Assembly (NCBI GenBank): GCA_965235115.1
Contig: OZ249436.1
Location: forward strand, 23,624,001 to 23,688,000
Reading direction: 5' to 3'
DNA from: Laetmonice hystrix
Taxonomy: Eukaryota
Length of the DNA stretch: 64,000 nt
A program made the translations under genes and the position numbers. Numbering within the stretch: position 1 is the first letter of the stretch; each line of letters begins with the position of its first letter. A model generated the notes under the pieces. It saw only the letters and a program-made list of their open reading frames with translations. It ran no database searches and had not been told where the DNA came from. Of the stretch, positions 16,569-56,275 are shown piece by piece.

Positions 16569-16836
16569 GGGGGCCTCGGGTGGCCGAGTGGTCTAAGGTG
16601 TCGGCTCCATCATGACACCTAGGACTATCGCCTCACACCGCTGCGACCCGGGTTCGATTCCCGGCCTGGGCTGCATGTGTGAAAGGTTTGTCAGTCAGTT
16701 CCTTCCCGAAGGTCGGTGGTTTCCTCCGGGTACTCCGGTTTCCTCCACCAAGAAAAACTGACTTTCATCTCATCTTCACCGCCGTGATATGACCCTGGCT
16801 GTTGCAAGGCGTAAAACCCCAAATACCCACCCACCC
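16569..16836 (+). mobile_element. tRNA-derived SINE (same family as 9596)
   Basis: Highly similar to 9596-9848, with A/B boxes, core and tail; directly abuts a LINE. Confidence 0.88.
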
Positions 16837-18892: not shown

Positions 18893-19292
18893 AGAACGCA
18901 CTCACCAAACACAAACCGATGAACCACAACACAGGACTGAGCAGATGTGTTCACTTCGTGTTGAGGATGTTGAGGACTCATTCGGTTCTATTTATACCCG
19001 CTGACCCACCTCGTCATTTCCTTTCCTTCACTTCCTCCTCCTCAAGTGTGCATTACTTAGATGAGAAATATTATGTTGGTTGCTAACAGTAAAAATGGGT
19101 AGTACCAACACTGGATTTTACCAAACGTTTAGATTTAATGGATTACATGTACATGTATTTGGGAATATGTAATGAATATTCACTAATGAGATGCAGGCAA
19201 GTTTACTGACTTAGTACTACGCTTCTTAGTACAGCCATCCTCGTTTAGCCTTCATAAATTATGATCCTGACGTTGTCGTGGAGCTCGTATTT
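18893..19292 (-). mobile_element. Diverged 5'-end fragment of the split-direct-repeat element family
   Basis: Shares aaccgatgaaccacaac, gatgttgaggactca, tatttataccc, cctcgtcatttcctttcc, aagtttactgactta, catcctcgtttag, cttcataaa and gagctcgtattt with 39390-39742. Confidence 0.8.
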
Positions 19293-20158: not shown

Positions 20159-20754
20159 GTATGATAAGTCTGACCAACCAACCAAGGTCACCTTACCATG
20201 ATTAGTATTTGTGATAAATTGTAGATACGGAATCAACAGCATAGCAGTAACCTGTTAGTTGGGTCATTTCTGGCACTTCCGTGACCGTGGAGTCCAAACA
20301 AAGGTTTCTCTATGGATTTGTCATCTTTGAGGGTTACTTTGAAAAATTAGCGAGGGTGACCCTCGCGAAAGTGTGGGTTAACTTTGCAAGGGGCCATAAT
20401 CCAAAATGGCTGCCGGGGGCCACCTTATGGTTTAGGCTTTTTTCTATGGTTTAGGCTACAGTGCTGATCAGCATATGCTTTCTTGGGTTTTGGGGGTCAA
20501 GGAATTCATTTTTGGTACTTTCTTAATGATTCGACCTCGTTTTGACCGAGAAATCCAAGATGGCTGCCGTTCACCATGTTGGAAACAGGAGCTTTCTGGT
20601 TTTTTTTGGGCAGGCAGGCAGGTGGCGTATACAGAGACCTAATCACTCCAGTAAGGAGGGGTACATAAGGTCCTAATCACTAAAGGCAGGTGGGTTATAT
20701 AGGTTCCTAATCACTACAGTCAGAAGGGGTATATAGGGACCTAATCACTACAGG

Positions 20755-22910
20755 CGAATGGGTTCAGTAATCTTGGGGCCTGGGTTCGATTCCTGTAGAG
20801 GACTATACGACTTTTCTCTTTAGGGACATTGTCAAAGTAATTGGGTTACCCCTGATGCCCGTGCATTTCAAAAGAAAAATACAGTCTACGCCAGTGCCAG
20901 GATTACCTTAACAGTCAATGTTCGGTAGAAATCATGTGTAGCTCTAACTAGGCAAATAAGGATTCCGTCTCATCTCGGAAGATGTGTGTAGGGGGGAGGG
21001 TCCATTGTCCTGCTCGACCACCAAAGCTTCCTTTTTTAGGGAAGTGGCGGTGGCCGAGTGGGCATGGGCGTCGATACCTTATGCTATGCGAATGGGTGCA
21101 GTAATCTTGGGGCTGGGGTTCGATTCCTGTAGAGGACTATACAACTTTTCTCTTTACGGACATTGTCAAAGTAATTGGGTTACGCCTGATGCCCGTGCAT
21201 TTCAAAAGAAAATTACCGTCAGCTGGGGGTATATAAGTTCCTAATCACTACACTACTACTACTACTACTACTACCTGCCTGTAGTGATTAGGCCCCTATA
21301 TACCCCTCCTGACTACTGATTAGGTCCCTATATACCCACCTGACTGTAGTGATTAGGACTTTATATACCCCTTCTGACTGCAGTGATTGGGTCCCTATAT
21401 ACCCCACGTGACTGTAGTGATGCCACCGTTCTTAAGGACGCCATGATCTTCCTTCTGCCTCAGATGGTTAATCTTTACTCCTGCTGCCTGGACAGTAGTA
21501 TCTTCCCGCCTGCATGGTCTACATTGTCAAAGTAATTGGGTTACCCCTGATGCCCGTGCATTTCAAAAGAAAAATACAGTCTACGCCAGTGCCAGGATTA
21601 CCTTAACAGTCAATGTTCGGTAGAAATCATGTGTAGCTCTAACTAGGAAAATGTGGATTCCGTCTCATTTCAAAAAGATGTGTGTAGGGGGGAGGGTCCA
21701 TTGTCCTGCTCGACCACCAAAGCTCCTTTTTTTAGGGGAGTGGCGGTGGCCTAGTGGGCATGGATGTCGACACCTTATGCTATGCGAATGGGTGCAGTAA
21801 TCTTAGGGCCTGGGTTCGATTCCTGTAGAGGACTATACAACTTTTCTCTTTAGGGACATTGTCAAAGTAATTGGGTTACCCCTGATGCCCGTGCATTTCA
21901 AAAGAAAAATACAGTCTACGCCAGTGCCAGGATTACCTTAACAGTCAATGTTCGGTAGAAATCATGTGTAGCTCTAACTAGGAAAATGTGGATTCCGTCT
22001 CATTTCAAAAAGATGTGTGTAGGGGGGAGGGTCCATTGTCCTGCTCGACCACCAAAGCTCCTTTTTTTAGGGGAGTGGCGGTGGCCTAGTGGGCATGGAT
22101 GTCGACACCTTATGCTATGCGAATGGGTGCAGTAATCTTAGGGCCTGGGTTCGATTCCTGTAGAGGACTATACAACTTTTCTCTTTAGGGACATTGTCAA
22201 AGTAATTGGGTTACCCCTGATGCCCGTGCATTTCAAAAGAAAAATACAGGCAGATGGCGTATACAGGGCCCTAATCACCACAGGCAGGTGGCGTATATAG
22301 GTTCCTAATCACAATATGGATTCCGTCTCATCTCGGAAGATGTGTGTGGGGGGAGGGTCCATTGTCCTGCTCGACCACCAAAGCTTCCTTTATTAGGGAG
22401 GTGGCGGTGGCCGAGTGGGCATGGGCATCGATAACTTATGCTATGCGAATGGGTGCAGTAATCTTGGGGCCGGGGTTCGATTCCTGTAGAGGACTATACG
22501 ACTTTTCTCTTTAGGGACATTGTCAAAGTAATTGGGTTACCCCTGATGCCCGTGCATTTCAAAAGAAAAATACAGTCTACGCCAGTGCCAGGATTACCTT
22601 AACAGTCAATGTTCGGTAGAAATCATGTGTAGCTCTATCTAGGCAAATAAGGATTCCGTCTCATCTCGGAAGATGTGTGTAGGGGGGAGGGTCCATTGTC
22701 CTGCTCGACCACCAAAGCTTCCTTTTTTAGGGAAGTGGCGGTGGCCGAGTGGGCATGGGCGTCGATACCTTATGCTATGCGAATGGGTGCAGTAATCTTG
22801 GGGCCGGGGTTCGATTCCTGTAGAGGACTATACAACTTTTCTCTTTACGGACATTGTCAAAGTAATTGGGTTACGCCTGATGCCCGTGCATTTCAAATGA
22901 AGAAAAATAC
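20755..22910 (+). repeat. About 335-bp tandem repeat containing a tRNA-like A/B-box module
   Basis: cattgtcaaagtaattggg recurs at 20827, 21161, 21522, 21857, 22192, 22518 and 22852; units carry tggcc(g/t)agtgg and ggttcgattcc. Further copies lie at 25050-25200 (+) and about 25385-25755 (-). Confidence 0.85.
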
Positions 22911-23340
22911 AGTCAGGTGGGGTATATATGAACCTAATCGCTACAGTCAGGTGAGGTATATAGGTTCCTAATCACTAGTCAGGTGGGGTATATAGGGCCC
23001 TAATCAGTACAGTCAGCTGGGGTATATAGGGGCCTAATCACTACAGTCAGGAGGGGTTTGGGGTACATAAGGTCCTGATCAATATTCAGGTGGGGTATAT
23101 AGGGGCTTAATCACTACAGTTGGATATATAGGTTCCTAATCACTAGTCAGGTGGGGTATATAGGGCCCTACTCACTACAGCCAGGAGGGGTACATAAGGT
23201 CCTAATCAATATTCAGGTGGAGTATATAGGGGCCTAATCACTACAGTCACATGGGGTATATAGGGCCTAATCAGTACAGTCAGCTGGGGTATATAGGGGC
23301 CTAATCACTAGTCAGGTGGGGTATATAGGGCCTAATCAAA
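22910..23340 (+). repeat. About 30-35-bp minisatellite (ggggtatatagggcctaatcactacagtca)
   Basis: About 13 degenerate units; the same motif occurs at 20620-20750, 21225-21420, 25205-25380 and 25760-25865. Confidence 0.85.
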
Positions 23341-25012
23341 CGTAATATCGAGGAGGAAATATATGATCCTCAAATACATTAAACAAATACATGTACATGT
23401 GCTATACTATATACTATATACTTTATAGACTATATCGGAAACGGCAGACTGTACAGCTCGCCTATATTTACAGTGCGTGATGCGAAGGGTGAGGGTGAAT
23501 GGGTTATGATGAGGTAGGTCGGTCGTGCTATCAATGTATAGATACCATGAATAAGAAGTTGGACTGCCGTGGGATACTACAAGTGATTGTGTTAAACAGC
23601 TTTCTTGAATTCAGATAAGGTGTTGAGCTTTTGAGTCAGAGGCGGAAGGTTGTTCCAGAGAATAGTCCCTCTGTACAAGGGACTGTGTTTGAAGAATTCA
23701 GTTTTTGGTTTGGGAGGTTTAATAGGTCGCCCCCGACTAGCTCTTGTCGGCAGGCTCGATGAGGTGGGAGGATTTATGAGTTGCGCGTACTTAAACATGA
23801 GACACATAAGTGGACGCGTTCGGCGTTTGCTAAGGTAATCTAGACCACATCTTGTGTGCAGAAGGTCAATGTTTGCAGGTCCCGGAGGGGTTAGAGTACA
23901 TATTCTCAAACCGCGGTTCTGGAGTGTCTGGATTTTGTTTTTGTCAGCAACCAGAAAGCCATCTGTTAAAAATGAGCAGTACTCTAAAAGGGGCAGAATG
24001 GTCTGTTTATATATTTGTATCGCTGCATGTTCAGTGAGTAATCGTCGTAGTTTCGCTAACTTAAAAAGTTTACCACTGACGGACTTAACGATGGATGAGA
24101 CCTGGCCTTTAAAGGTTAAGTTTTTGTCCACTTTAACCCCAAGATACTTGTAACTCTCTGCGGTTGGGAGTACTGCACCATTAAAACGAAATTGGAAATA
24201 GGAGTTGCTTTGCAGGCCTAATTGCCGTTGCGATCCGTACCAGACAATTTTCGTCTTTTTCGTGTTGACAGTCAGGCAGTTCTGCCTGCACCAAGTTGCT
24301 AAACGGTCTAGATCGGCTTGAAGTCTAACATGCACTAGGGCAGGGTCTTTGTCGGCGGTAAGTAGTGCAGTATCGACTGCGTATGTTTGTATGTCGCTTT
24401 GTAACACACAGTTAGAGATATCATTTATGTAGATAATAAACAAAAGTGGTCCTAGAATAGAACCCTGGGGGACGCCAAACTTAACAGGTACACTGGGAGA
24501 TTTAGAAGGTCCAAAAGATACCTTTTGCGTGCGTTCAAACAGATAACTGCCAATCCACTCAACAATCGATCTATGTAGTCCAAGGAGCTTTACTTTCTCT
24601 AGAAGCCGGCCATGATGGACGGAGTCGAAGGCTTTTTTAAAATCTATGTAACAAACTGCAGTTAGTTCCTTGGACTCACGCTTAACATATAGGGCGTTGA
24701 CCAGTTTGAAAACGGCATCAGTGGTGCCGCGTACAGGTCGGAACCCATACTGGGTGCTAGCAAGAATCTTATTAGCTTCTAAGTGTTGCATGATGTGATT
24801 GTGAACAACCTTCTCAAGAATTTTACCTGGGATGGGGAGTAATGAAATAGGACGCCAATTGTTAATGTCAGTAAGGTCTCCAGTCTTGGGAATAGGGACG
24901 ACATTTGCTTCTGACCATGCAGGCGGGAAGATACTACTGTCCAGGCAGCAGGAGTAAAGATTAACCATCTGAGGCAGAAGGAAGATCATGGCGTCCTTAA
25001 GAACGGTGGCAT
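23340..25012 (-). mobile_element. 5'-truncated CR1/L2-group LINE (RT ORF 23592-~25010)
   Basis: NWRPISLLP, QYGFRP, DFKKAFDSV, GVPQGSILGPLLFIIYIND, YKYLGV. The catalytic YADD reads YAVD, so the RT is probably inactive. Confidence 0.9.
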
Positions 25013-25310
25013 CACTACAGTCACGTGGGGTATATAGGGACCCAATCACGGCATGGATGTCGACACCTTATGCTATGCGAATGGGTGCAGTAATCTTAGG
25101 GCCTGGGTTCGATTTCTGTAGAGGACTATACAACTTTTCTCTTTAGGGACATTGTCAAAGTAATTGGGTTACCCCTGATGCCCGTGCATTTCAAAAGAAA
25201 AATGCAGTCAGAAGGGGTATATAAAGTCCTAATCACTACAGTCAGGTGGGTATATAGGGACCTAATCAGTAGTCAGGAGGGGTATATAGGGGCCTAATCA
25301 CTACAGGCAG

Positions 25311-25346
<36 letters not shown>

Positions 25347-26328
25347 TAGTGATTAGGAACTTATATACCCCCAGCTGACGGTAATTTTCTTTTGAAATGC
25401 ACGGGCATCAGGCGTAACCCAATTACTTTGACAATGTCCCTAAAGAGAAAAGTTGTATAGTCCTCTACAGGAATCGAACCCCGGCCCCAAGATTACTGCA
25501 CCCATTCGCATAGCATAAGGTATCGACGCCCATGCCCACTCGGCCACCGCCACTTCCCTAAAAAGGAAGCTTTGGTGGTCGAGCAGGACAATGGACCCTC
25601 CCCCCTACACACATCTTCCGAGATGAGACGGAATCCATATTTTCCTAGATAGAGCTACACATGATTTCTACCGAACATTGACTGTTAAGGTAATCCTGGC
25701 ACTGGCGTAGACTGTATTTTTCTTTTGAAATGCACGGGCATCAGGCGTAACCCAATTGTGATTAGGAACCTATATACCCTACCTGACTGTAGTGATTAGG
25801 ACCTTATGTACCCCTCGTTACTGTAGTGATTAGGTCCCTGTATACGCCACCTGCCTGTAGTGATTGAATATGAATTCCCTGACCCAAAAATCCCAGAAAG
25901 GTTGCGTTGATCAGCATTACAGCCACACCATTGAGAGGCTTGTTTCCAAGATGGTGAACGGCAGCCATCTTGGATTTCTCGGTCAAAACGAGGTCGAATC
26001 ATTAAGGAAGTACCAAAAATGAATTCCTTGACCCCAAAAACCCCAGAAAGCATATGCTGATCAGCACTGTAGCCTAAACCATAGAAAAAGTAATTTTTAA
26101 GGTGGCCTCCGGCGGCCATTTTGGATTTTGGCCCCTTGCGAAGTTAGCCCACACTTTCGTGAGGGTCACCCTTGCTAATTTTTCAAAGTAACCCTCAAAG
26201 ATGACAAATCTATAGAGAAACCTTTGTTTGGGCTCCACGGTCACGGAAGTGCCAGAAATGACCCAACTTTATGTTGTGAACTCTTCCTCTACCTCAGTAA
26301 CTGTTGTCTTCTACCTTTCCATCTGCAG

Positions 26329-26529: not shown

Positions 26530-27760
26530 AGCCAAGGTCCAAAATAATTGATTTTGTTGCACCCCCTCAACATATTCATACACCCATATTTTTCTGAAAG
26601 TAGACAGTCTGAGGAAACATTATAGGTAGGGTGTACTCAATTTTGATGAAATCTGGGGTCAAAGGTCAAAGGTCATGAAAAATGACCCATGACCCCAAAA
26701 ATCACACTTTCCCTAATTTCTCAAAAGATTAAATACATAGAAAGGTCTTTTTGAACATATTGTTGCAGCATCCAATGAGAAAAAAGAAAATGTCTTTATT
26801 TGACCTTTGACCCCAAGGTCAAGGTCACTCAAGGTCAAAAACATCCAAATTAGGCAATATTGTGGAATTTCATTCAAAAAAGTTTCTTTTTGTAAACATA
26901 GAAAAGAGATAAATTTATGCGTTTTGGATATCAATAAAAAGAAATGGAACTTTGGATGTTGAAATTGGTATAAGGCATTTCAGAAAGTGAATTTACTGCC
27001 AAGATATGAATGTTTAAATAAAAAAAGTAAAATATATTTTACAAATGCCAATAATTCATTAGACTGTTCCATGGGACTGTGAATTCATTCATTTCTCAGA
27101 AGAATATGAGCACAGAGCAACAAAAGGGCACATATGGAGTCGTCTTTTAAAGTTAAAGAGGAAAACTTATTCATTTGACCTTTGACCCTAAGGTCAAGGT
27201 CACCATTGACCCTCAAGTTCAAAGGTCAAGGTCAGATTGCGTTTCTTTCACATTTTAATCACACATTAAAAAGAGCCTAATCTACGGATCTGGGTCATTA
27301 TTTGATAGAAATGACAATATTGGATCTGAATATGGACTGAATTTCTTTCAGAAAAAGATGATACTCTCAAAGAATTTGAGAGTTTTAAATAAAGAGAAAA
27401 ATCTTTCAAAAATACCCCAAAAAAATCCAAAAAATCAGAGGACCCCTTTCTAGAATCACGGCTTCATTACTTTCTCAAACATATATGAGTAAACAGTAAT
27501 AAAATAGCACTTTGGGATTGGTCCTCAAGTTGAAGTAGAAAAAGGTAAATTAGAAAATGTCATTGCTTAACCTTTGACCCTGAGGTCAAGGTTACCCTAA
27601 CCCAAAGGTCAAGGTAACCTTGGGGTCATGATAATCCAAGGTCACTGTTGATCAAAAAGCAGCAAAATTAGGAAACAATAGGACAATAAGAGACCAATAT
27701 GGAGATCATTTGAGTATTATATGTCTGACATTTCAAAACCAGTAAATACGAACCGCTATG
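26530..27760. repeat. Interspersed repeat rich in tgacctttgacc / ggtcaaaggtca motifs
   Basis: Motif repeated in both orientations; boundaries approximate, class unresolved. Confidence 0.45.
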
Positions 27761-30274
27761 CCAACTTCTATGGGAATCGACAAGCATTTGGTAAAGTGAC
27801 GGATCCTAAAAGCTCAACTAATTAGGTACCAGCTGGCCAACTGACACACAGACAACACTTAAACACGGCCAGTCGGCGTGCACTGCTTCTTGGAAAGTGA
27901 GACGAGTAGACATGTAGCCACAGTGTTTGAAAACCAGGCCAAATGATAGATTAGCCTTAGAAATACAGATCCAAGGACGTACTCCCCCACAGAAGATGGC
28001 GTCGGTTACATAACAAGTTAGGTTCATATGAGGCATGGCTTAAGTAACAAATATATAACAAATATAACTCATCAGCTTAATGGATTATACATGGGAAGCC
28101 TTATACATCTGCTGACATGTGCTGAGCATGTGACTACGAATCAGCTAAGAATATTCTGAAGCAAATAAAATAGGCAATGGCTGCTGCCAAAGTACTTTGG
28201 GCGGAAGACCACCAAAAGGCTATTGCCAAAGTACCAATCAAAATACAGTATTTCTACTTTGGCAGCAACAAGCCAGGGTAATTGCTGCCAAAGTACCAAT
28301 GGGCGACTGGCTTACAAACTGCTTGTTGCCCGATCCTGCCAAAGTACTTTGGAAGCAAGAAACAATGTATACGGTCAATTCGGGGTTGATGCATGTAACA
28401 AAGTACTGTGTCCGCATTATAAAGCCACACGATTGTGCAGAAAACCGTGGGCTTCAGTATCAAAGTACTTTATGAAGTCAAAACTCGGAAGAGGAGGATG
28501 GTATTGTAGGTTACATTTTATTTACATTGTAACCCGTCGATCCCCACTAAGAGGACTCTATACAAAGGTTGAAACGTGGAGACTACATAATGAAGTTGAA
28601 TAATTAATTACATCGGATGATAACAATCAACACTTTATAAATCTGTATATATAGTTGTACCCAAATCCATATACGCAGGATAGAAATTACTGTTCTGCCT
28701 TATTAGGTGGAGACAACATGGGCAGAATCAAGTAACCCAGACAACCCTCCCAGAGAACCCAACTAACCCCCAAAACCCGGGCAGACCACACTGACCCCGA
28801 GTATCCCTCCCCTTAACCCTGCCCAGCACATCTATAAGCCCCCGCAAAATACAGCTAAATTATCGTAGATGAATATTCTGCATAAAAAACGAAGACGGAG
28901 GAGTCGGGGTGGAGGTGGGACGTTCGTTCACTTCATGTCGACAGATGTTGAGGACTCAACCTTGACCGTTTGCTTGTATTTATACCCTCCGCGGCGCCTC
29001 GTCATTTCCTTTCCTCCAATTCCTGTACCAACTGCGCATGATTTTATTGATAGGAACCAATATGGTGGTCATAGAGATCCTGGTGTAAACAAACCCCTTA
29101 CGTGGATTTAGTAATGGATTGATAACGAAGTAAGTTTACTGACTTAAAGATTTCCCTACAACCATCCTCGTTTAGCTTCATAAATGATCCCGACTTCGTT
29201 GTCGTCGAGCTCGTATTTATGAAGTCAAAACTCGGAAGAGGAGGATGGTATTGTAGGTTACATTTTATTTACATTGTAACCCGTCGATCCCCACTAAGAG
29301 GACTCTATACAAAGGTTGAAACGTGGAGACTACATAATGAAGTTGAATAATTAATTACATCGGATGATAACAATCAACACTTTATAAATCTGTATATATA
29401 GTTGTACCCAAATCCATATACGCAGGATAGAAATTACTGTTCTGCCTTATTAGGTGGAGACAACATGGGCACTAAGCTGAATCGGAGATACAGCTGGAGC
29501 CACCCAAAAAGGCAGACGAATAATCTTGGGCAGTCCACCTGACCATCCGAGCGCCTGAGAAGAAGCTTTGCCATTCTGACTGTCAATACATCACATCAAC
29601 TCTTAAATGTGAGCTTGCCCCGTTAGACGTCTTATATACCTCCCGCACTAAAAACCAGGGATAAAATCCCAACCAATAGGCTAGGTAAAAACCCAGGAAA
29701 AGCGTAGAAGTGTAGGCTACGTGAGCCCTCCAATCGGTAACGCAACGAAGCCAACGGCGCTGAGAGGCCATGGAGGGCCTCAAAGTATACTGTTCCATGA
29801 TCTGCTGCAAGGTGAAGCCGGTGTACCTTGGAATGCTTCTCACTGACTGACCACTAGAAGTCATGCAAATCGGAATTCTGGTGCCCTAATTACCATGCAA
29901 CCAGGATACAAGTCACTGAAACGGTCCATTTCTGGCCAACTGGAAGACGGCCTCCCTTGCAGACCTGAAGAAGAGTCAACCACGGAGCAGTAAGCTTGTA
30001 CTTCCACTGTATGCCTAATGACGGAATCCGACCTGAGCCTAACATCAGACTCCTACTCAATCCACACCGACGAAGAACCGCTCCTAGATGAAGCACCTGA
30101 TGACGCACCACAGCGGCCCCTCCTGTACTGTACCAAGATGCGAAGCGACCACTGGAAGAGCAATAAATATTCCAAGCAGTAATTTTGAACAAGAAGACTA
30201 AGTGATACACTTTAGAAAGGCACATGAACAGACACGGCATCCATAGACCAATAGTTCCTGGGGAACATACTCCC

Positions 30275-30720
30275 CATAATAGTAATAATAGTAATAATAG
30301 TAATAATAGAATAATAGTAATAATAGTAAAAGCGGAGGGATATGGCCCTCATTAATAACAAAAATAGTAACAATACAGTAAAGAATACAAATAACTAAAA
30401 TAGCAATACAATGAATAACAAAATAATAATAATGAAAGGAATGGCAATAATAAAAAAGGATAATCATAAAATGAATATTAATAAAAATATCAATAACAAA
30501 AAAAAATGAATAACAGTAAATAAAATAAATAACAACCATGATAATAAAATGAATAATAATAACAATAATCTTTAAAACGTAAAATGGATAATTGAAATAA
30601 GAGCAATAATAATAGTAATAATAATAAAATGTATAATACTACTAAGTAATCACAATAGAAATAAATATAATAAAATGAATAATAATGTGCATCATAATAT
30701 AAAATAATAAAAATTAAATA
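30275..30720. repeat. (AAT)n-like low-complexity tract; second copy at about 35492-35937
   Basis: Directly visible; the source of the spurious Tyr/Ile/Leu-rich ORFs. Confidence 0.9.
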
Positions 30721-31374
30721 ACCAGGAAACCAAGAGTGACAGATCTTCAATACAACCCCACGATTACCAGTAATAAAATGAAGTGACGGAACCCATGTGT
30801 GAGCCACAGAACTCACAAAAACCCCACTTGCTACAGCAACAATAACATAAACGCAAGTGGCAGAACCAACCAAATACCACTTAACCGCGGTAACAATATT
30901 GCCTTTTAGGTGGAATCAAACCCAGAGGTAACGTTCACATCCTGCCCCATCTCCGTCAGCCAGCCAGTGGGTCGCAGCCTCCAGAAAAGCATCTGATTAC
31001 GCATGACAACGTCCCCTCCTTGGCACTGCCCATCCTCTGGAGCGTCCTCGGAGCCCGACGGACAAATTGGACTCCGGTCCCGAGCCAAAGACGCACGTCC
31101 CCGACCCCTCCGTAGCCGTGGCCTACCATGTCAGGAGCAAAACTGGAAAGGCAAAAAATTTTCAACGCAGTCATCTGGATTAAGAGGAACATAAGATGCA
31201 CCAGTTGAGACACTAGAAGGTAACAAAGGCACAAATGACAAAGTAACTCATGGGCACCCAGATTGGACCCTGAAGAAAAAAACACAGGAGAGATTACAAT
31301 AAACGTAGGGGTACCCAGAAGACATTCATAGATTTGGGGGGGGGGCGAGGAACCCCAAACCTCTCCTCCAAATA

Positions 31375-31830
31375 ACTCTGGGGGGTCCGGGACCAAAAGG
31401 CACCCGGACAAAGCCCAGGAAACGGGTGGAGGGGCCAACGGCACACCCTCCAACCGGGGATAATACCTCTGGGGGGTCCGGGACCAAAAGGCACCCGGAC
31501 AAAGCCCAGGAAACGGGGGGAGGGGCCAACGGCACACCCTCCAACCGGGGGATAATACCTCTGGGGGGTCCGGTACCAAAAGGCACCCGGACAAAGCCCA
31601 GGAAACGGGGGGAGGGGCCAACGGCACACCCTCCAACCGGGGGATAATACCTCTGGGGGGTCCGGGACCAAAAGGCACCCGGACAAAGCCCAGGAAACGG
31701 GGGGAGGGGCCAACGGCACACCCTCCAACCGGGGGATAATACCTCTGGGGGGTCCGGGACCAAAAGGCACCCGGACAAAGCCCAGGAAACGGGGGGAGGG
31801 GCCAACGGCACACCCTCCAACCGGGGGGGA
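31375..31830. repeat. About 91-bp GC-rich minisatellite, 5 units
   Basis: Unit ctctggggggtccgggaccaaaaggcacccggacaaagcccaggaaacggggggaggggccaacggcacaccctccaaccgggggataatac. Confidence 0.92.
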
Positions 31831-34800
31831 GTGGGGTCCACATTCCATACGGAACCACACGAACCCCAAATACCTCCCCCCAGGAAAACATAGGGGGGGG
31901 GAAGGGCCGCGGGTCAATACAGAACAGCACGGCAACACCTTCCAAAGCCCTGAACAACCGGGGGATGGAGGAGGAACCGGGGCCCCCAGAAACACACCCA
32001 GCCCACTAAGCAGAAAATACATATATGAGAAGCAACTTGAAAGGGAAACAGGTTGCAAGGTACATATGACCAACAAGCGTATCATGTATTGTAAAGGAAT
32101 TAACTAAAACAAAGTTATACTCCGTCCAGTCCCGCTCACACTGAACGCGGCACCTCGAAGGGAGCGGTACGGTTTATACCTGCCTCTGTAGTGGATACCA
32201 TCAAGGAGAAAATCCTCCTCGGTAATATACCTCCCAGCCGAGTAGGGGGAAGGGTCAGAACCAGCACGAAGCCATCTCGAAGAGTGTAGTTAGGAAGAGC
32301 ATAATCATCCAAACCAAATAACGTAATCACAGGATGAAGTAACTAAACGTAACGAAGTCTTGAAGAACGCTGTACAAATCGAAAAGTTATAATATATGCA
32401 GCCAAGTTGATAAACTTAACATGACTAAAAAAAAAATTTTTGCTCAGACCAATTCTCATAACGGGAAGAGTTCCGAAGCAGATGTACATGGATCCTCTGG
32501 TCAAATTGCAAAAGGAACTAATACGACTAATATCAAATGTACCCAGTTAGCACCTACCGTAAACTCCAAATAAGCGAATATTAATAGTATAATAAAACAA
32601 AAATTTGCATAATGAAGCAAATTCATGCATAATTCGATACCGGTATACAACCTCGTCCTTTTAGAAATACATGTATATTTTGAATCATACAAAAAGCAAC
32701 TCAGAAGAAGCTAGTAGTAGGAAACATCTATTAGTTAACATGCACCAGCGTAGGGATCCTTCACTGCATGCATAACTGCTCTGATTTAACATGTCTGGTC
32801 AGCATAACAATATATTCAACGCGATACATACCAAAATGTACTCCAAAGGTAGCAAAACATTAAATTATGAAAAGGAATCGGACGAAAACTTGAAACTATA
32901 GTAAGCTTTATATATGCCGATATGCATTTAAAGTGAAGAAATAACACAAATTACTGCGCCTGAGTATAGTACTAAAGACTAAACCGTCTTGAAATCCGGG
33001 ATGAAAATACTGAAGGATACCCCGTTAAAAAGCAACAAAATTCTAAAACGTAATGTGAAGACTGAACTGAAGTATCCATGGCGAAAGACAAGAATCCCGT
33101 TTAGCAGACAATTATGCCAAACATTGATTCTCACCATGACACATTGAAGCATTGCCTAAAAGAAATATGGATAAATGAGGACATACCAAACAGCTCAGTT
33201 AAAGAAATGGATATCAAAGGTCGACTAACTTACAAACGAAAAGTGTATGAAACCAAACTCCCATAATAGCACTGACCAGCAGAGGCTAAAATTACTAAAA
33301 ATAGTACAAAGTAGGACAGACAGTACAGGTGAATAACAGTGGTTGTCCTACCTATGACGTCTTCACTGATAAATGCTATTAGATGAAACGTTGACCAAAA
33401 GGAAAGTGTCCCGTCTGTCTACCAAAAATAGGTACCCACCCAGTGGTGTTTGAAACGCATGCGGTCCATACAGACCCTGTCAACCTGCACGACTAACCCC
33501 GGTCAAATCACGCTACTGAACTGGTCCTAAAGCAGATGCACCGACATAAGCCCCAAGACACTTTTCAATAGAATTACACTGTACCACTGCGAAAACTACC
33601 AAGAAGCGAGCTTTAAGATTAAGATAACACTAAATGGTAAGCAAAACATCAAGCTGATAAATACATAAGGCTCCTCTTAAACCAACTAATGTAACCAAGT
33701 AGGCCTATTACAGTTCGACCCCGTTATAACCTGGTGGAATGGGGTGGGGTGGGCCGGGTTCGGAAAGGAATATGCGTCATGGCAAAGAACATAAGTCCCT
33801 AACATAAAGTAAAAGTCTTGATACTATGCCTGAAGAACATAAATCATTCCCGCCCATATTAGTAGACCAATATTACTTTGAGCAAGACGAACTAAGGACA
33901 GGCACAAAACGCTAAACCGGCCTACTACCCAACACGATGTAAAACTAAGACTCCACGTCAAAGCTGTCAGATACTGAACCATAATTGTTGAGAATAGAAT
34001 GTGTTCTGGAAACGGACGTGGCTGACACCGACTACGGCAAGTTTAGGCTACATAATACAGTTGAGTGGAATGGAAACCAAATTAGAACGAACTCACCAAA
34101 CTCTAACCGATGAACCACAACGCAGGCCTGGCACGCACGTTCGTTCACTTCATGTCGACAGATGTTGAGGACTCAACCTTGACCGTTTGCTTGTATTTAT
34201 ACCCTCCGCGGCGCCTCGTCATTTCCTTTCCTCCAATTCCTGTACCAACTGCGCATGATTTTATTGATAGGAACCAATATGGTGGGCATAGAGATCCTGG
34301 TGTAAACAAACCCCTTACGTGGATTCAGTAATGGATTGATAACGAAGTAAGTTTACTGACTTAAAGATTTCCCTACAACCATCCTCGTTTAGCTTCATAA
34401 ATGATCCCGACTTCGTTGTCGTCGAGCTCGTATTTATGAAGTCAAAACTCGGAAGAGGAGGATGGTATTGTAGGTTACATTTTATTTACATTGTAACCCG
34501 TCGATCCCCACTAAGAGGACTCTATACAAAGGTTGAAACGTGGAGACTACATAATGAAGTTGAATAATTAATTACATCGGATGATAACAATCAACACTTT
34601 ATAAATCTGTATATATAGTTGTACCCAAATCCATATACGCAGGATAGAAATTACTGTTCTGCCTTATTAGGTGGAGAAAACATGGGCACTAAGCTGAATC
34701 GGAGATACAGCTGGAGCCACCCAAAAAGGCAGACGAATAATCTTGGGCAGTCCACCTGACCATCCGAGCGCCTGAGAAGAAGCTTTGCCATTCTGACTGT

Positions 34801-36591
34801 CAATACATCACATCAACTCTTAAATGTGAGCTTGCCCCGTTAGACGTCTTATATACCTCCCGCACTAAAAACCAGGGATAAAATCCCAACCAATAGGCTA
34901 GGTAAAAACCCAGGAAAAGCGTAGAAGTGTAGGCTACGTGAGCCCTCCAATCGGTAACGCAACGAAGCCAACGGCGCTGAGAGGCCATGGAGGGCCTCAA
35001 AGTATACTGTTCCATGATCTGCTGCAAGGTGAAGCCGGTGTACCTTGGAATGCTTCTCACTGACTGACCACTAGAAGTCATGCAAATCGGAATTCTGGTG
35101 CCCTAATTACCATGCAACCAGGATACAAGTCACTGAAACGGTCCATTTCTGGCCAACTGGAAGACGGCCTCCCTTGCAGACCTGAAGAAGAGTCAACCAC
35201 GGAGCAGTAAGCTTGTACTTCCACTGTATGCCTAATGACGGAATCCGACCTGAGCCTAACATCAGACTCCTACTCAATCCACACCGACGAAGAACCGCTC
35301 CTAGATGAAGCACCTGATGACGCACCACAGCGGCCCCTCCTGTACTGTACCAAGATGCGAAGCGACCACTGGAAGAGCAATAAATATTCCAAGCAGTAAT
35401 TTTGAACAAGAAGACTAAGTGATACACTTTAGAAAGGCACATGAACAGACACGGCATCCATAGACCAATAGTTCCTAGGGAACATACTCCCCATAATAGT
35501 AATAATAGTAATAATAGTAATAATAGAATAATAGTAATAATAGTAAAACCGGAGGGATATGGCCCTCATTAATAACAAAAATAGTAACAATACAGTAAAG
35601 AATACAAATAACTAAAATAGCAATACAATGAATAACAAAATAATAATAATGAAAGGAATGGCAATAATAAAAAAGGATAATCATAAAATGAATATTAATA
35701 AAAATATCAATAACAAAAAAAAATGAATAACAGTAAATAAAATAAATAACAACCATGATAATAAAATGAATAATAATAACAATAATCTTTAAAACGTAAA
35801 ATGGATAATTGAAATAAGAGCAATAATAATAGTAATAATAATAAAATGTATAATACTACTAAGTAATCACAATAGAAATAAATATAATAAAATGAATAAT
35901 AATGTGCATCATAATATAAAATAATAAAAATTAAATAACCAGGAAACCAAGAGTGACAGATCTTCAATACAACCCCACGATTACCAGTAATAAAATGAAG
36001 TGACGGAACCCATGTGTGAGCCACAGAACTCACAAAAACCCCACTTGCTACAGCAACAATAACATAAACGCAAGTGGCAGAACCAACCAAATACCACTTA
36101 ACCGCGGTAACAATATTGCCTTTTAGGTGGAATCAAACCCAGAGGTAACGTTCACATCCTGCCCCATCTCCGTCAGCCAGCCAGTGGGTCGCAGCCTCCA
36201 GAAAAGCATCTGATTACGCATGACAACGTCCCCTCCTTGGCACTGCCCATCCTCTGGAGCGTCCTCGGAGCCCGACGGACAAATTGGACTCCGGTCCCGA
36301 GCCAAAGACGCACGTCCCCGACCCCTCCGTAGCCGTGGCCTACCATGTCAGGAGCAAAACTGGAAAGGCAAAAAATTTTCAACGCAGTCATCTGGATTAA
36401 GAGGAACATAAGATGCACCAGTTGAGACACTAGAAGGTAACAAAGGCACAAATGACAAAGTAACTCATGGGCACCCAGATTGGACCCTGAAGAAAAAAAC
36501 ACAGGAGAGATTACAATAAACGTAGGGGTACCCAGAAGACATTCATAGATTTGGGGGGGGGCGAGGAACCCCAAACCTCTCCTCCAAATAA

Positions 36592-37138
36592 CTCTGGGGG
36601 GTCCGGGACCAAAAGGCACCCGGACAAAGCCCAGGAAACGGGTGGAGGGGCCAACGGCACACCCTCCAACCGGGGATAATACCTCTGGGGGGTCCGGGAC
36701 CAAAAGGCACCCGGACAAAGCCCAGGAAACGGGGGGAGGGGCCAACGGCACACCCTCCAACCGGGGGATAATACCTCTGGGGGGTCCGGTACCAAAAGGC
36801 ACCCGGACAAAGCCCAGGAAACGGGGGGAGGGGCCAACGGCACACCCTCCAACCGGGGGATAATACCTCTGGGGGGTCCGATACCAAAAGGCACCCGGAC
36901 AAAGCCCAGGAAACGGGGGGAGGGGCCAACGGCACACCCTCCAACCGGGGGATAATACCTCTGGGGGGTCCGGGACCAAAAGGCACCCGGACAAAGCCCA
37001 GGAAACGGGGGGAGGGGCCAACGGCACACCCTCCAACCGGGGGATAATACCTCTGGGGGGTCCGGGACCAAAAGGCACCCGGACAAAGCCCAGGAAACGG
37101 GGGGAGGGGCCAACGGCACACCCTCCAACCGGGGGGGA
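36592..37138. repeat. About 91-bp GC-rich minisatellite, 6 units
   Basis: Same unit as 31375-31830, with one extra copy. Confidence 0.92.
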
Positions 37139-39499
37139 GTGGGGTCCACATTCCATACGGAACCACACGAACCCCAAATACCTCCCCCCAGGAAAACATA
37201 GGGGGGGGAAGGGCCGCGGGTCAATACAGAACAGCACGGCAACACCTTCCAAAGCCCTGAACAACCGGGGGATGGAGGAGGAACCGGGGCCCCCAGAAAC
37301 ACACCCAGCCCACTAAGCAGAAAATACATATATGAGAAGCAACTTGAAAGGGAAACAGGTTGCAAGGTACATATGACCAACAAGCGTATCATGTATTGTA
37401 AAGGAATTAACTAAAACAAAGTTATACTCCGTCCAGTCCCGCTCACACTGAACGCGGCACCTCGAAGGGAGCGGTACGGTTTATACCTGCCTCTGTAGTG
37501 GATACCATCAAGGAGAAAATCCTCCTCGGTAATATACCTCCCAGCCGAGTAGGGGGAAGGGTCAGAACCAGCACGAAGCCATCTCGAAGAGTGTAGTTAG
37601 GAAGAGCATAATCATCCAAACCAAATAACGTAATCACAGGATGAAGTAACTAAACGTAACGAAGTCTTGAAGAACGCTGTACAAATCGAAAAGTTATAAT
37701 ATATGCAGCCAAGTTGATAAACTTAACATGACTAAAAAAAAAATTTTTGCTCAGACCAATTCTCATAACGGGAAGAGTTCCGAAGCAGATGTACATGGAT
37801 CCTCTGGTCAAATTGCAAAAGGAACTAATACGACTAATATCAAATGTACCCAGTTAGCACCTACCGTAAACTCCAAATAAGCGAATATTAATAGTATAAT
37901 AAAACAAAAATTTGCATAATGAAGCAAATTCATGCATAATTCGATACCGGTATACAACCTCGTCCTTTCAGAAATACATGTATATTTTGAATCATACAAA
38001 AAGCAACTCAGAAGAAGCTAGTAGTAGGAAACATCTATTAGTTAACATGCACCAGCGTAGGGATCCTTCACTGCATGCATAACTGCTCTGATTTAACATG
38101 TCTGGTCAGCATAACAATATATTCAACGCGATACATACCAAAATGTACTCCAAAGGTAGCAAAACATTAAATTATGAAAAGGAATCGGACGAAAACTTGA
38201 AACTATAGTAAGCTTTATATATGCCGATATGCATTTAAAGTGAAGAAATAACACAAATTACTGCGCCTGAGTATAGTACTAAAGACTAAACCGTCTTGAA
38301 ATCCGGGATGAAAATACTGAAGGATACCCCGTTAAAAAGCAACAAAATTCTAAAACGTAATGTGAAGACTGAACTGAAGTATCCATGGCGAAAGACAAGA
38401 ATCCCGTTTAGCAGACAATTATGCCAAACATTGATTCTCACCATGACACATTGAAGCATTGCCTAAAAGAAATATGGATAAATGAGGACATACCAAACAG
38501 CTCAGTTAAAGAAATGGATATCAAAGGTCGACTAACTTACAAACGAAAAGTGTATGAAACCAAACTCCCATAATAGCACTGACCAGCAGAGGCTAAAATT
38601 ACTAAAAATAGTACAAAGTAGGACAGACAGTACAGGTGAATAACAGTGGTTGTCCTACCTATGACGTCTTCACTGATAAATGCTATTAGATGAAACGTTG
38701 ACCAAAAGGAAAGTGTCCCGTCTGTCTACCAAAAATAGGTACCCACCCAGTGGTGTTTGAAACGCATGCGGTCCATACAGACCCTGTCAACCTGCACGAC
38801 TAACCCCGGTCAAATCACGCTACTGAACTGGTCCTAAAGCAGATGCACCGACATAAGCCCCAAGACACTTTTCAATAGAATTACACTGTACCACTGCGAA
38901 AACTACCAAGAAGCGAGCTTTAAGATTAAGATAACACTAAATGGTAAGCAAAACATCAAGCTGATAAATACATAAGGCTCCTCTTAAACCAACTAATGTA
39001 ACCAAGTAGGCCTATTACAGTTCGACCCCGTTATAACCTGGTGGAATGGGGTGGGGTGGGCCGGGTTCGGAAAGGAATATGCGTCATGGCAAAGAACATA
39101 AGTCCCTAACATAAAGTAAAAGTCTTGATACTATGCCTGAAGAACATAAATCATTCCCGCCCATATTAGTAGACCAATATTACTTTGAGCAAGACGAACT
39201 AAGGACAGGCACAAAACGCTAAACCGGCCTACTACCCAACACGATGTAAAACTAAGACTCCACGTCAAAGCTGTCAGATACTGAACCATAATTGTTGAGA
39301 ATAGAATGTGTTCTGGAAACGGACGTGGCTGACACCGACTACGGCAAGTTTAGGCTACATAATACAGTTGAGTGGAATGGAAACCAAATTAGAACGAACT
39401 CACCAAACTCTAACCGATGAACCACAACGCAGGCCTGGCACGCACGTTCGTTCACTTCATGTCGACAGATGTTGAGGACTCAACCTTGACCGTTTGCTT

Positions 39500-39590
39500 G
39501 TATTTATACCCTCCGCGGCGCCTCGTCATTTCCTTTCCTCCAATTCCTGTACCAACTGCGCATGATTTTATTGATAGGAACCAATATGGT
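39500..39590 (-). promoter_or_regulatory. Putative Pol II promoter in repeat A (TATAAATA, CCAAT)
   Basis: tatttata on + equals TATAAATA on -, and is conserved in the diverged 19-kb copy. A GTGAGT donor lies about 100 nt downstream and is also conserved. Confidence 0.45.
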
Positions 39591-40629
39591 GGTCATAGAG
39601 ATCCTGGTGTAAACAAACCCCTTACGTGGATTCAGTAATGGATTGATAACGAAGTAAGTTTACTGACTTAAAGATTTCCCTACAACCATCCTCGTTTAGC
39701 TTCATAAATGATCCCGACTTCGTTGTCGTCGAGCTCGTATTTGTCAGCAACTTTATCAGGAACTCTTATTGCACATGTGGACGAAGAACTTTGTCTGGAA
39801 GCGCTGTTACCAAAGTCTATGGGTACACATACACTGAAGTGTGAAAGCACAAAAGTTGTTAGGGGACGTTCAGACTATTACCGCGTTATATCAGTGGCAG
39901 ATCCGGGGGTAGGGAGTTAACCCCCTAGCCAATTTTGTCTTTTTTCACCATTGAACGGTCTTAATTGTCCATGACTACTCCCCTCCCCCAGAAAATTCTT
40001 CCCATAACCCCGCCCCCTTTCTAAATCCCGCATCCGCCCTGTATCAATACGGTTTTTAATACCAAAGTAGGCCTACTTTGACAGGAAAAAGTGTGATTAG
40101 GCCTATACTACAATTTCTAAGCATGACCTACTGAGCCAACGTCCTTTTTGTCTGGAAACATGAAATCTCTGGACCTGAGATTTAGTTTTGACACACTTTT
40201 TCATGACACACAGGGACATTTTCGATGGCGAAGTACTTTGTCAGGTGACGCTGTCTTAACGTGACGTTTATTGACAGAATAAAGGCAGGAAGTCAAGCGG
40301 TACTATATTTTGAACATGAGCTTTATTGCCAACGACCCTTCACATTGGACATAGAGAATTACAACTGTCGGTGTTGAGAAAATCTTAGGTGTAAAAGCAA
40401 AAGGTATACTCGTAGTTTGCTGACGTAGTCAAGGTAACGTAGGCCTACTTATATACATGTAGGCCTATATAATTTGGAGATGCCAATTAACATGCGAAAC
40501 TGTGTAACCCTGAAAAAAAGCCTTTCAGAACTTCTTTCGCGAGTTACAGTAAAACAGCCTGCGGTAATTTGGCCTGAATCTGTATAGTAATATGGAACAC
40601 TTGGAAAAAGTGGAAACCAGTGCGTGGCA

Positions 40630-41255
40630 ACAGTAATTTGGTAATCGCAAAGCAGCCTAACCCCCTACCCCTTGCTGCCACAGTACTTTGGTAATAGCAA
40701 AACAGCCTAACCCCCTACCCCTTGCTGCCACAGTACCTTGGCAATAACAATGCAGCCTAACCCCCTACCCCTTGCTGCCACAGTACCTTGGCAATAACAA
40801 TGCAGCCTAACCCCCTGCCCCTTGCTGCACCATTACTTTGGCAATAACAATGCAGCCTAACGCCCTACCCCTTGCTGACACAGTACCTTGGCAATAACAA
40901 TGCAGCCTTACCCCCTACCCCTTGCTGCCACAGTACTTTGGTAATAGCAAAGCAGCCTAACCCCCTACCTCGATCATCTTGCTGCCACAGTACTTTGGTA
41001 ATAGCAAAGCAGCCTAACCCCCTACCCCTTGCTGCCACAGTACCTTGGCAATAACAATGCAGCCTAACGCCCTACCCCTTGCTGCACCATTACTTTGGCA
41101 ATAACAATGCAGCCTAACGCCCTACCCCTTGCTGCCACAGTACCTTGGCAATAACAATGCAGTCTAACCCCCTACCCCTTGCTGCCACAGTACCTTGGCG
41201 ATAACAATGCAGCCTAACGCCCTACCCCTTGCTGCCACATTACTTTGGCAATAAA
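40630..41255. repeat. 50-bp minisatellite, about 12 units
   Basis: Unit gcagcctaaccccctaccccttgctgccacagtaccttggcaataacaat with a 50-bp period. Confidence 0.92.
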
Positions 41256-41256
41256 A

Positions 41257-41727
41257 ATGCCTCGGGGAAGCATTGAGGAGGTATGGGAAGAATGCACTTT
41301 CAACCATCACCGACATTTCGGCAAATATTCGGAAATGCAACCCCACATCGGGAATGTATCACCGACAGGTCGCTGAGAGGTCGCCGTACATGCGGCGGAG
41401 ATCAAAATATCCCCGGAGGTTCCCTGATCCTTCGCCGAAACAGCACACGCGGTTCAGGGGGACGAAGGTTTCGCGGAAGCTCAGGGGAAGCATCCCCGGG
41501 GTTTCCCCGGGGCTCGGGAAAGGTACGGGGATGCCTCCCCGGCCTGTTTTACCGACAAAACGTCGGGAACACATCAGGAAAAATTTCAATGCAGGCATTG
41601 AAATTTTTCGCAGTTCTCCCGATGCCTCCCGATGGTTCCACATGGCTCCTGACGCTCCCGAGGCTTCCTCGAAACACCGGGAAACCTGTTCCCGATGCCT
41701 CCCCGAGGCCAAAAATGCCCAGTGGGA
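41257..41727. mobile_element. Partial GC-rich MITE-like repeat
   Basis: Repeated cggggaagcat / atgcctccc motifs in both orientations; ends cagtggg; left end not found. Confidence 0.4.
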
Positions 41728-56207: not shown

Positions 56208-56275
56208 TTTATGAAGTCAAAACTCGGAGAGGAGGACGGTGTTTGTAGGTAACATCATAACCCGTTCATCCCCGT
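56208..56275 (-). mobile_element. Terminal fragment of repeat B of the split-direct-repeat family
   Basis: tttatgaagtcaaaactcggagaggaggacggtgtttgtagg...taacccgt matches 28469 onward. Confidence 0.7.

What the first reader, a model, noticed from the sequence alone, without database searches (positions are those of the whole stretch)
28469..39742. Young, non-coding split-direct-repeat (Ngaro/PAT-like) retroelement
Seen: on the minus strand the order is A-internal-B/A-internal-B/A-195-bp spacer-B, with near-identical A (299 bp) and B (256 bp) copies. Collapsing the duplicated unit gives A1-internal-B1A2-B2. The element begins and ends in TTT with no longer TSD, and rejoining the flanks restores caaagtactttgtcagcaac, similar to the host motif at 28188 and 28255. 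A holds a TATA box; B holds AATAAA near the B/A junction. Established: Ngaro and PAT tyrosine-recombinase retrotransposons have A1...B1A2B2 split direct repeats and integrate without a standard TSD. Inference: this is a recently mobile non-autonomous member whose ~4.7-kb interior encodes no RT, RNase H or recombinase, so it must be mobilised in trans.
Basis: partly seen in the sequence, partly recalled or inferred. Interest (0 to 1): 0.8.

Follow-up and report, generated by a model that had tools for sequence, protein, structure and literature searches.

The report
Gene-less split-repeat jumping element, doubled
An intron of a collagen-like gene holds a young, multi-copy, protein-less mobile element, assembled here as a head-to-tail double, whose split terminal repeats and shared TTT ends suggest that it likely moves like a tyrosine-recombinase retrotransposon on borrowed enzymes; this is a known kind of element, with a predicted hairpin between its two repeats as the one open lead.

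Summary
The layout is real: on the minus strand A-interior-B/A-interior-B/A-195 bp-B, with A (299 bp) and B (256 bp) copies 99.3-100% alike, TTT at both ends and both junctions, and no longer duplication. Contigs of one sample show many copies, varied flanks at the B end and paralogous empty sites. Two relics in the window stop at the same termini. The interior encodes nothing recognisable. Best reading (0.72): a TOC1-like non-autonomous split-direct-repeat retroelement, later doubled by unequal recombination. Its helper was not found (no genome held), so Ngaro versus PAT cannot be decided. The serious rival (0.14) is a tandem of Helentron-type elements: the ends carry an asymmetric inverted repeat, but the 5' hairpin test fails. 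New here: the end of B pairs with the start of A (z -4.0 to -5.3) and is predicted to hide the internal poly(A) cleavage zone. The scan noted this kind before on other DNA: this genome (e1-7880516), another genome (e1-7810804), and A-B pairing in sea-urchin Ngaro (e1-9998703). New member of a known kind; interest 0.3.

The parts
28469..28724 (-). Terminal repeat B (B2 of the model), 256 bp; starts at TTT on the plus strand; AATAAA at minus 28522-28517 in the loop of a 7-bp stem
28725..28919 (-). 195-bp spacer, unrelated to the interior, A or B
   Evidence: 180 of 300 shuffles score as well against the interior; multi-copy
28920..29218 (-). Repeat A (A2 of the model), 299 bp; TATAAA at minus 28984
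29150..29262 (.). B/A junction with shared TTT (29216-29218) and an imperfect inverted repeat between the A arm (about 29155-29185) and the B arm (about 29215-29258)
29216..29471 (-). Repeat B (internal copy, B1 of the model)
29472..34136 (-). Interior, unit 1 (4665 bp), no recognisable coding; T-rich on the minus strand (37% T); AAT-rich tract 30276-30686; 92-bp GC-rich tandem repeat x5 at 31371-31827
34137..34435 (-). Repeat A, middle copy (likely crossover copy of the dimer)
34433..34688 (-). Repeat B, copy at the second junction
34689..39443 (-). Interior, unit 2 (4755 bp); 92-bp repeat x6 at 36587-37135
39444..39742 (-). Terminal repeat A (A1 of the model); ends in TTT on the plus strand
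28168..28471 (.). Left part of the high-copy host repeat that received the insertion; it continues at 39743
   Evidence: summed depth rises from 29-74 to thousands near 28168; contigs leave at 28471 into sequence like the right flank
18893..19292 (-). Relic of an older subfamily: end of interior plus a whole A repeat, 72-78% alike in blocks, ending at the same terminus; cut on its inner side by the 3' tail of a LINE
56208..56275 (-). Relic B terminus beginning exactly at TTT in an unrelated flank; lacks the AATAAA

Best explanation
This is a young, multi-copy, protein-less mobile element with split direct repeats that likely copies itself through RNA and likely inserts by recombination at a TTT, using the reverse transcriptase and tyrosine recombinase of a helper element that was not found. 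Shown: the repeat layout, the TTT ends, the empty site, many copies and the lack of recognisable genes. Inferred steps: (1) transcription on the minus strand starts about 30 nt after the TATA box, near the inner end of A1, and ends after the AATAAA near the outer end of the last B; (2) the missing outer parts of A and B are rebuilt from the internal B/A junction during reverse transcription, which is why paired repeats are identical; (3) a circle forms whose junction carries one TTT; (4) the recombinase joins that TTT to a genomic TTT, leaving one at each end. The 5967-bp monomer was probably doubled after insertion by unequal exchange between its repeats, the reciprocal of the event that leaves solo A-B blocks. 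The end of B is complementary to the start of A; in the RNA this pairing is predicted to form only where B is followed by A, and would hide the cleavage zone of the internal poly(A) signal so that the full-length RNA reads on to the terminal B.
For: Layout A1-interior-B1A2-B2 is the defining pattern of split-direct-repeat DIRS-order elements (PMC8969392, PMC9210276, PMC6681497, passages). One trinucleotide at both ends and at the junction, with no duplication, is the described mark of recombinase integration in DIRS1-like elements (PMC3266345, PMC7192593, passages) and is seen here. Contigs of one sample: 11 contigs of run X2 leave at 28469 into unlike flanks (agreement 0.43); contigs in X1, X2 and X3 run past 28471 into sequence like the right flank (X2: 25 of 30 letters, counted by eye), i.e. 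empty paralogous sites; single B or A contigs have depth 3788 (X1) and 1729 (X2) against 74 and 29 for the unique flank, roughly 50-60 fold. Diverged variants keep both the B-to-interior exit at 28724 and a B-to-spacer exit. In X4, contigs over B/A, spacer and spacer+A have depth 102, 48 and 83, close to the 2:1 that the layout predicts (weak hint). Both relics stop at the same TTT termini. The spacer is not a piece of the interior. TATA box kept in the relic A. Junction fold z -4.04 (minus, RNA), 0 of 200 shuffles; A arm with B arm -33.8 kcal/mol, 0 of 500 shuffles, and relic A with relic B -25.4, 0 of 500. Predicted unpaired share of the cleavage zone 0.32-0.45 at internal B against 0.58-0.73 at terminal B. 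Private substitutions: 3 in 1665 repeat bases, 3 in 9330 interior bases, p 0.049, a weak hint that the doubling is later than the insertion.
Against: No RT or recombinase gene, no helper and no circle were seen; the class rests on architecture alone. The order of A and B at other loci was not read: contigs are too short and no genome is held. Among the 24 loose-end rows shown (351 not shown) none is at the A terminus 29218, so that end rests on the relic and the empty site. All four runs are one sample, possibly the source of the window, and contig depth is not a copy number. The termini also fit part of the Helitron2/Helentron signature. The junction folds as well on the plus strand (z -4.50) and as DNA (z -5.31), so folding does not pick the strand or RNA; the folded window was chosen after the repeat was seen; two subfamilies are too few to show covariation, and the two changes visible by eye in the arms favour opposite strands. 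The relic B lacks the AATAAA. TATA and AATAAA each arise by chance in 6-18% of shuffles.
Confidence: 0.72

Rival explanations
1. A head-to-tail tandem of non-autonomous Helentron/Helitron2-type rolling-circle elements read on the plus strand: one short (B-spacer-A, 750 bp) and two long (B-interior-A, 5.2 kb), sharing TTT junctions.
For: A 9-10 bp perfect inverted repeat lies at the very start of B and ends 34 nt before the end of A, the asymmetric placement described for Helitron2 and HINE elements (PMC3627910, PMC4067079, PMC5148889, passages); T-rich target without duplication; an 8-bp palindrome 6-14 nt from the A end; internal microsatellite and tandem repeat; tandem insertions are reported for Helitrons. 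Earlier notes list Helentron-type elements in this genome (unchecked).
Against: No 5' hairpin involving the terminal repeat (first 40 nt z -0.17, repeat unpaired) and no strong 3' hairpin (z -0.36; relic -1.94 with another structure). The complementarity runs over about 28 pairs, longer than 8-15 bp. The spacer of the short unit is unrelated to the long interior, yet both share 256 and 299 bp at 99.3-100%, and diverged variants keep both exits. No Rep/Helicase trace.
Confidence: 0.14
2. The family is real but the doubling is an assembly error: two alleles or a graph loop through the A/B repeats written in tandem. This rival concerns only the dimer.
For: Units are 99.9% alike; 2 of their 8 differences are one-base homopolymer indels; the private T at 29109 is in none of the laid contigs of the four runs, though contigs drop rare variants.
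Against: 5 substitutions and a 92-bp repeat unit with its own variant distinguish the units; the window lies on a piece of more than 23 Mb, which suggests long reads (inference); unequal exchange between such repeats is implied by the solo AB repeats of Cafeteria Ngaros (PMC8547959, section 11).
Confidence: 0.15
3. A DNA-only element moved by a tyrosine recombinase (Crypton-like excision as a circle and reinsertion at TTT), with no RNA step.
For: Shared short terminal motif, no genes, junction pairing strongest as DNA; Cryptons recombine a short terminal motif with a like target (bioRxiv 2022.05.23.493040, passages).
Against: It does not explain two pairs of 250-300 bp identical repeats, nor the TATA box and poly(A) signal at the ends that the retro model requires.
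Confidence: 0.07
4. A Penelope-like element with pseudo-LTRs, or an ordinary LTR element in tandem.
For: Partial tandem structure; Penelope-like elements form pseudo-LTRs from a second truncated copy (PMC8969392, passages).
Against: Both termini are fixed to the base in two independent relics; no TG..CA ends and no target duplication; unique spacer; no Rfam family, hammerhead ribozymes included, at the gathering score in the window.
Confidence: 0.03

Closest known systems
TOC1 of Chlamydomonas reinhardtii
   Same: Non-autonomous version of a tyrosine-recombinase retroelement, TOC3 (PMC5613634, passages); TOC elements have split direct repeats (PMC3266345, passages). Recalled, from no call: about 5.7 kb, a spacer between the terminal repeats, an internal 76-bp tandem array, no target duplication, much as here (5967 bp, 195-bp spacer, 92-bp array).
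   Different: Animal host; no helper identified; present here as a dimer; no sequence comparison was possible (the original paper is not held).
Ngaro retrotransposons (DIRS-53_XT of Xenopus; Cafeteria burkhardae types 1-4)
   Same: A1-interior-B1A2B2; repeats of like size (236 and 152 bp in DIRS-53_XT, PMC9210276 passages); solo AB blocks from recombination between repeats (PMC8547959 section 11).
   Different: Ngaros encode Gag, RT/RNase H and recombinase; this element encodes none. Cafeteria deletion variants lose only ORF1.
VIPER and SIRE of Trypanosoma cruzi
   Same: Same repeat order; SIRE equals A2-short unique region-B2, the counterpart of the 750-bp terminal block here (PMC6681497, passages).
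   Different: Kinetoplastid lineage; VIPER is coding; whether this family has free A-spacer-B copies was not shown.
HINE / DINE-1 non-autonomous Helentrons and Helitron2
   Same: Asymmetric terminal inverted repeat, T-rich target, no duplication, internal tandem repeats (PMC4067079, PMC3627910, passages).
   Different: No 5' hairpin, weak 3' hairpin, long split direct repeats with an unrelated spacer.

Membership tests
Non-autonomous split-direct-repeat DIRS-order element (TOC1 type) | A1-interior-B1A2-(spacer)-B2 with near-identical paired repeats | tested here: met
   met once the doubled unit is counted once
Non-autonomous split-direct-repeat DIRS-order element (TOC1 type) | No target-site duplication; one short motif shared by both ends, the junction and the empty site | tested here: met
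   paralogous empty sites
Non-autonomous split-direct-repeat DIRS-order element (TOC1 type) | Dispersed copies with the same termini | tested here: met
   11 unlike flanks at 28469 in X2; relics at 19292 and 56208
Non-autonomous split-direct-repeat DIRS-order element (TOC1 type) | Same A..BA..B order at other loci | tested here: inconclusive
   junction and spacer contigs are abundant but no contig spans the blocks
Non-autonomous split-direct-repeat DIRS-order element (TOC1 type) | Autonomous RT plus recombinase partner with matching termini | not testable with these tools
   no genome held; exact terminal patterns gave 18 of 18 chance matches in metagenomes and 0 in viral contigs
Non-autonomous split-direct-repeat DIRS-order element (TOC1 type) | RNA and circular DNA intermediates | not testable with these tools
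   only contigs were served
Ngaro (autonomous) | RT/RNase H open reading frame | tested here: not met
   the control LINE RT of the window scored RVT_1 at 6e-36
Ngaro (autonomous) | Tyrosine recombinase open reading frame | tested here: not met
Ngaro versus PAT-like versus VIPER | RT phylogeny and presence or absence of the methyltransferase domain | not testable with these tools
   no coding sequence; split repeats arose more than once (PMC4157794, passages)
Helitron2 / Helentron (HINE) | Asymmetric inverted repeat: at the 5' end and some 20-60 bp from the 3' end | tested here: met
   9-10 bp perfect core, ending 34 nt from the A end
Helitron2 / Helentron (HINE) | 5' hairpin that involves the 5' inverted repeat | tested here: not met
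   z -0.17 (40 nt) and 0.15 (80 nt), repeat unpaired; relic z -0.63
Helitron2 / Helentron (HINE) | 3' hairpin or palindrome behind the 3' inverted repeat | tested here: inconclusive
   8-bp palindrome present, 6 bp kept in the relic; fold z -0.36 and -1.94
Helitron2 / Helentron (HINE) | T-rich target without duplication | tested here: met
Helitron2 / Helentron (HINE) | Rep/Helicase partner with the same ends | not testable with these tools
   no genome held; none inside the element

The most novel reading that the evidence does not exclude
The A-B pairing is a built-in poly(A) switch of split-direct-repeat retroelements: the same B repeat is silent as a poly(A) site when followed by A, because A's first 65 nt clamp its cleavage zone, and active when terminal. 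That would solve how one RNA can carry B twice yet end only in the second, and this gene-less family, stripped to its cis signals, would be the minimal substrate for testing how these elements start and finish reverse transcription.
Probability: 0.25. Interest if true: 0.6.

Novelty: new member of a known kind. Interest (0 to 1): 0.3.

Why it matters
As an element it is a tidy animal example of a TOC1-like passenger of recombinase retrotransposons, a kind with few described cases in the papers I could read. Its use is as a stripped-down model: how split-repeat elements rebuild their ends is known only as a model (PMC6681497, passages), and even for DIRS-1 the start of reverse transcription is stated to be unknown (PMC7192593, passages). 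The junction pairing gives a specific, testable cis signal. Three searches found no description of such pairing or of a poly(A) switch: 0 papers with all five terms; 0; 15 of 30 listed, seen as listings except those read for other terms. The primary Goodwin and Poulter papers and the TOC1 papers are not in the library, so this is not a claim that it is unpublished.

Tried and rejected
Whole-genome search: no genome held. RNA evidence: no RNA holder listed. Rfam at gathering scores and ARAGORN: 0 hits in the window. Pfam on 6 full read-through frames: 0 families; on 36 shorter read-through pieces (the AAT tract and the 92-bp array left out): 7 weak hits, E 0.05-0.26, all below curated cut-offs, rejected. 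phmmer of one 259-residue minus-strand frame of the 3' interior against 1.84 billion proteins: 1 hit, E 1.5e-5, a bacterial-type peptidase C10 with leucine-rich repeats; the match is 30 residues at 37-40% counted three times over that protein's own repeats, rejected as chance; the other five frames were not searched there. Word-index searches of a 100-residue and a 137-residue frame against longer proteins: 0 of 39 and 0 of 114 candidates at E<=0.1 (weak tests). ESM Atlas on the 349-residue frame across the 92-bp array: best 0.79, unnamed, low recognition; that frame is also shifted between the two units. Longest stop-free stretches against shuffles: 180, 25 and 11 of 300 for three regions; the last was followed up without result. 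Metagenome scan for the 18-nt junction: 18 loci, none extends beyond 23 nt of similarity. Viral contigs: 0. Look-alike search in earlier findings by sequence: 0, so the 8.1-kb element noted in this genome could not be tied to this family. Long target-site specificity rejected: the flanks of the two relics and of 11 contigs share nothing beyond TTT that I could see. Insertion of a second full copy into the junction rejected as the origin of the dimer: it would leave two spacers, and there is one.
Full report
Observation. On the plus strand the order is B (28469-28724), a 195-bp spacer, A (28920-29218), B (29216-29471), a 4665-bp interior, A (34137-34435), B (34433-34688), a 4755-bp interior and A (39444-39742). 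Each A/B junction overlaps by TTT, and both outer ends are TTT with no longer duplication. A copies differ at 1-2 of 299 sites, B copies at 0-1 of 256; the two 5.2-kb units differ by 5 substitutions, 2 homopolymer indels and one 92-bp repeat unit. The element lies between exons of a collagen-like gene in an invertebrate; earlier notes call the host a probable annelid, which I did not test.

It is a mobile family. No genome is held, so I laid the contigs of four public runs, all one sample, on 27700-29250. The unique flank has depth 74, 29 and 70 in X1-X3; single contigs in B or A reach 3788 (X1) and 1729 (X2), about 50-60 times the flank, which points to tens of close copies, though depth is not a copy number. 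Eleven X2 contigs leave at 28469, the first T of B, into unlike flanks. Contigs of X1, X2 and X3 pass the TTT at 28471 and go on into sequence like the right flank (25 of 30 letters in X2, counted by eye): the target is a high-copy host repeat, and its paralogues hold one TTT where this locus has two. Only 24 loose-end rows were shown, 351 were not, and none of those shown lies at the A terminus. That terminus is supported by a relic at 18893-19292, 72-78% alike in blocks, which ends at the same base; a second relic at 56208 starts at the same TTT as B (0 matches in 100 shuffles for either pattern).

It has no recognisable gene. Pfam finds nothing in 6 of 6 read-through frames and only sub-threshold noise in 36 shorter pieces, while a LINE RT of the window scores 6e-36. 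Searches of three frames against large protein sets gave one hit, a chance match to the repeats of a bacterial-type peptidase. The long frames across the 92-bp array are stop-poor GC-rich repeat, shift between the two units and have no named look-alike. Very decayed remnants cannot be excluded.

How it likely works. Counting the doubled unit once gives A1-interior-B1A2-spacer-B2 on the minus strand, 5967 bp, the pattern of PAT-like, Ngaro and VIPER elements (PMC8969392, PMC9210276, PMC6681497; passages). A trinucleotide at both ends and at the junction is the described footprint of recombinase integration of a circle in DIRS1-like elements (PMC3266345, PMC7192593; passages); I extend it to this element by inference. 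The TATA box lies 65 nt from the inner end of A and the AATAAA 48 nt from the outer end of B: an RNA so defined lacks the outer parts of both repeats, which the internal B/A junction can restore. Each motif alone is weak (6-18% by chance); the TATA box is kept in the relic A, the AATAAA is not kept in the relic B. Diverged variants keep both exits from B, into the interior and into a spacer, and X4 depths of 102, 48 and 83 over B/A, spacer and spacer+A fit a 2:1 ratio (a weak hint). The enzymes must come from elsewhere; the helper was not found.

The doubling. One spacer only rules out a second full copy landing in the junction. Unequal exchange between repeats gives exactly this dimer and, reciprocally, solo A-B blocks like those reported for Cafeteria Ngaros (PMC8547959, section 11 read). 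Private substitutions are denser in the repeats (3 in 1665) than in the interiors (3 in 9330; p 0.049), a weak hint that the doubling came after insertion. An assembly error cannot be excluded without long reads (0.15).

The junction pairing. The last 45 nt of B are complementary to positions 34-65 of A (minus-strand numbering). The junction folds at z -4.04 as minus RNA, -4.50 as plus RNA and -5.31 as DNA, 0 of 200 shuffles each; the outer ends alone reach z -1.93 and -0.61. The arms of the two relics also pair (minus strand -25.4 kcal/mol, 0 of 500; plus strand -22.7, 15 of 500), though they may come from different subfamilies. Where B is followed by A, the zone 7-30 nt after the AAUAAA is predicted 0.32-0.45 unpaired, against 0.58-0.73 at the terminal B; the hexamer itself stays open in both. 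This suggests a switch that silences the internal poly(A) site, but it is a prediction: the strand is not fixed by folding, covariation could not be tested, and the arms could equally be recombinase or template-switch signals.

The serious rival. Read on the plus strand, the same inverted repeat sits at the first base of B and ends 34 nt before the end of A, as the asymmetric repeats of Helitron2 and HINE elements do, and these also use T-rich targets and form tandems (PMC3627910, PMC4067079, PMC5148889; passages). Against it: no 5' hairpin and a weak 3' hairpin, and a short unit whose spacer is not a piece of the long interior although both share 555 bp of ends at over 99%. I give it 0.14; the order of blocks across the genome would settle it.

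Comparison and verdict. It works like a TOC1-type passenger of a recombinase retrotransposon (TOC1 as non-autonomous TOC3: PMC5613634, passages; its size, spacer and 76-bp array are recalled, one search found the paper not held). It is not filed as Ngaro or PAT: the genes that define them are absent, and split repeats arose more than once (PMC4157794, passages). Also seen as passages without changing the reading: PMC13465315, PMC3783388, PMC12477816 and bioRxiv 2022.05.23.493040. No supplements were read; Repbase and Dfam were not available and may already hold such families. The scan noted this kind before, in this genome and in another. Verdict: real, young, ordinary in kind; new member of a known kind, interest 0.3, with the poly(A)-switch reading at probability 0.25 and interest 0.6 if true.

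Noticed in passing
window 615-60267 (+): Host gene: 15 plus-strand runs of 10 or more Gly-X-Y triplets, exons of a long collagen-like gene; the element and both relics lie between these exons, antisense by the inferred element strand.
   Followed up: partly
window 18893-19292: Older relative's A terminus plus 50 bp of interior, directly after the 3' end of a LINE that ends in short ACTC repeats.
   Followed up: yes
window 56208-56275: Isolated B terminus of an older relative, then another repeat family that recurs at 52154-52400 and 57438-57922.
   Followed up: yes
window 61569-64000 and 16833-18890 (+): LINE with a 480-residue ORF1-like frame running to the window end; its next part is 96% alike to the broken copy at 16833-17613. 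May be a young full-length copy.
   Followed up: no
window 23592-25067 (-): 491-residue frame with a LINE-type reverse transcriptase (RVT_1, 6e-36); a second fragment of this type at 50432-51470.
   Followed up: partly
window 40630-41260 and 28168-28468: A 50-bp tandem array (12.5 copies) carries the same palindromic motif as the high-copy host repeat that received the element, plus a telomere-like run; possibly a Helentron-type repeat.
   Followed up: partly
window 28508-28533 and the other B copies: The AATAAA of B sits in the 12-nt loop of a 7-bp stem; this bin has the highest summed contig depth of the laid stretch, i.e. it is shared by many subfamilies.
   Followed up: partly
window 13954-15510 and 20615-25865: Large tandem arrays (52-bp units in both orientations; 335-bp and 34-bp units, partly inverted around the RT fragment).
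   Followed up: no
run X4: X4 is a tenth the size of the other runs, covers the element and the host repeat but not the unique intron flank; its type is not on record.
   Followed up: no
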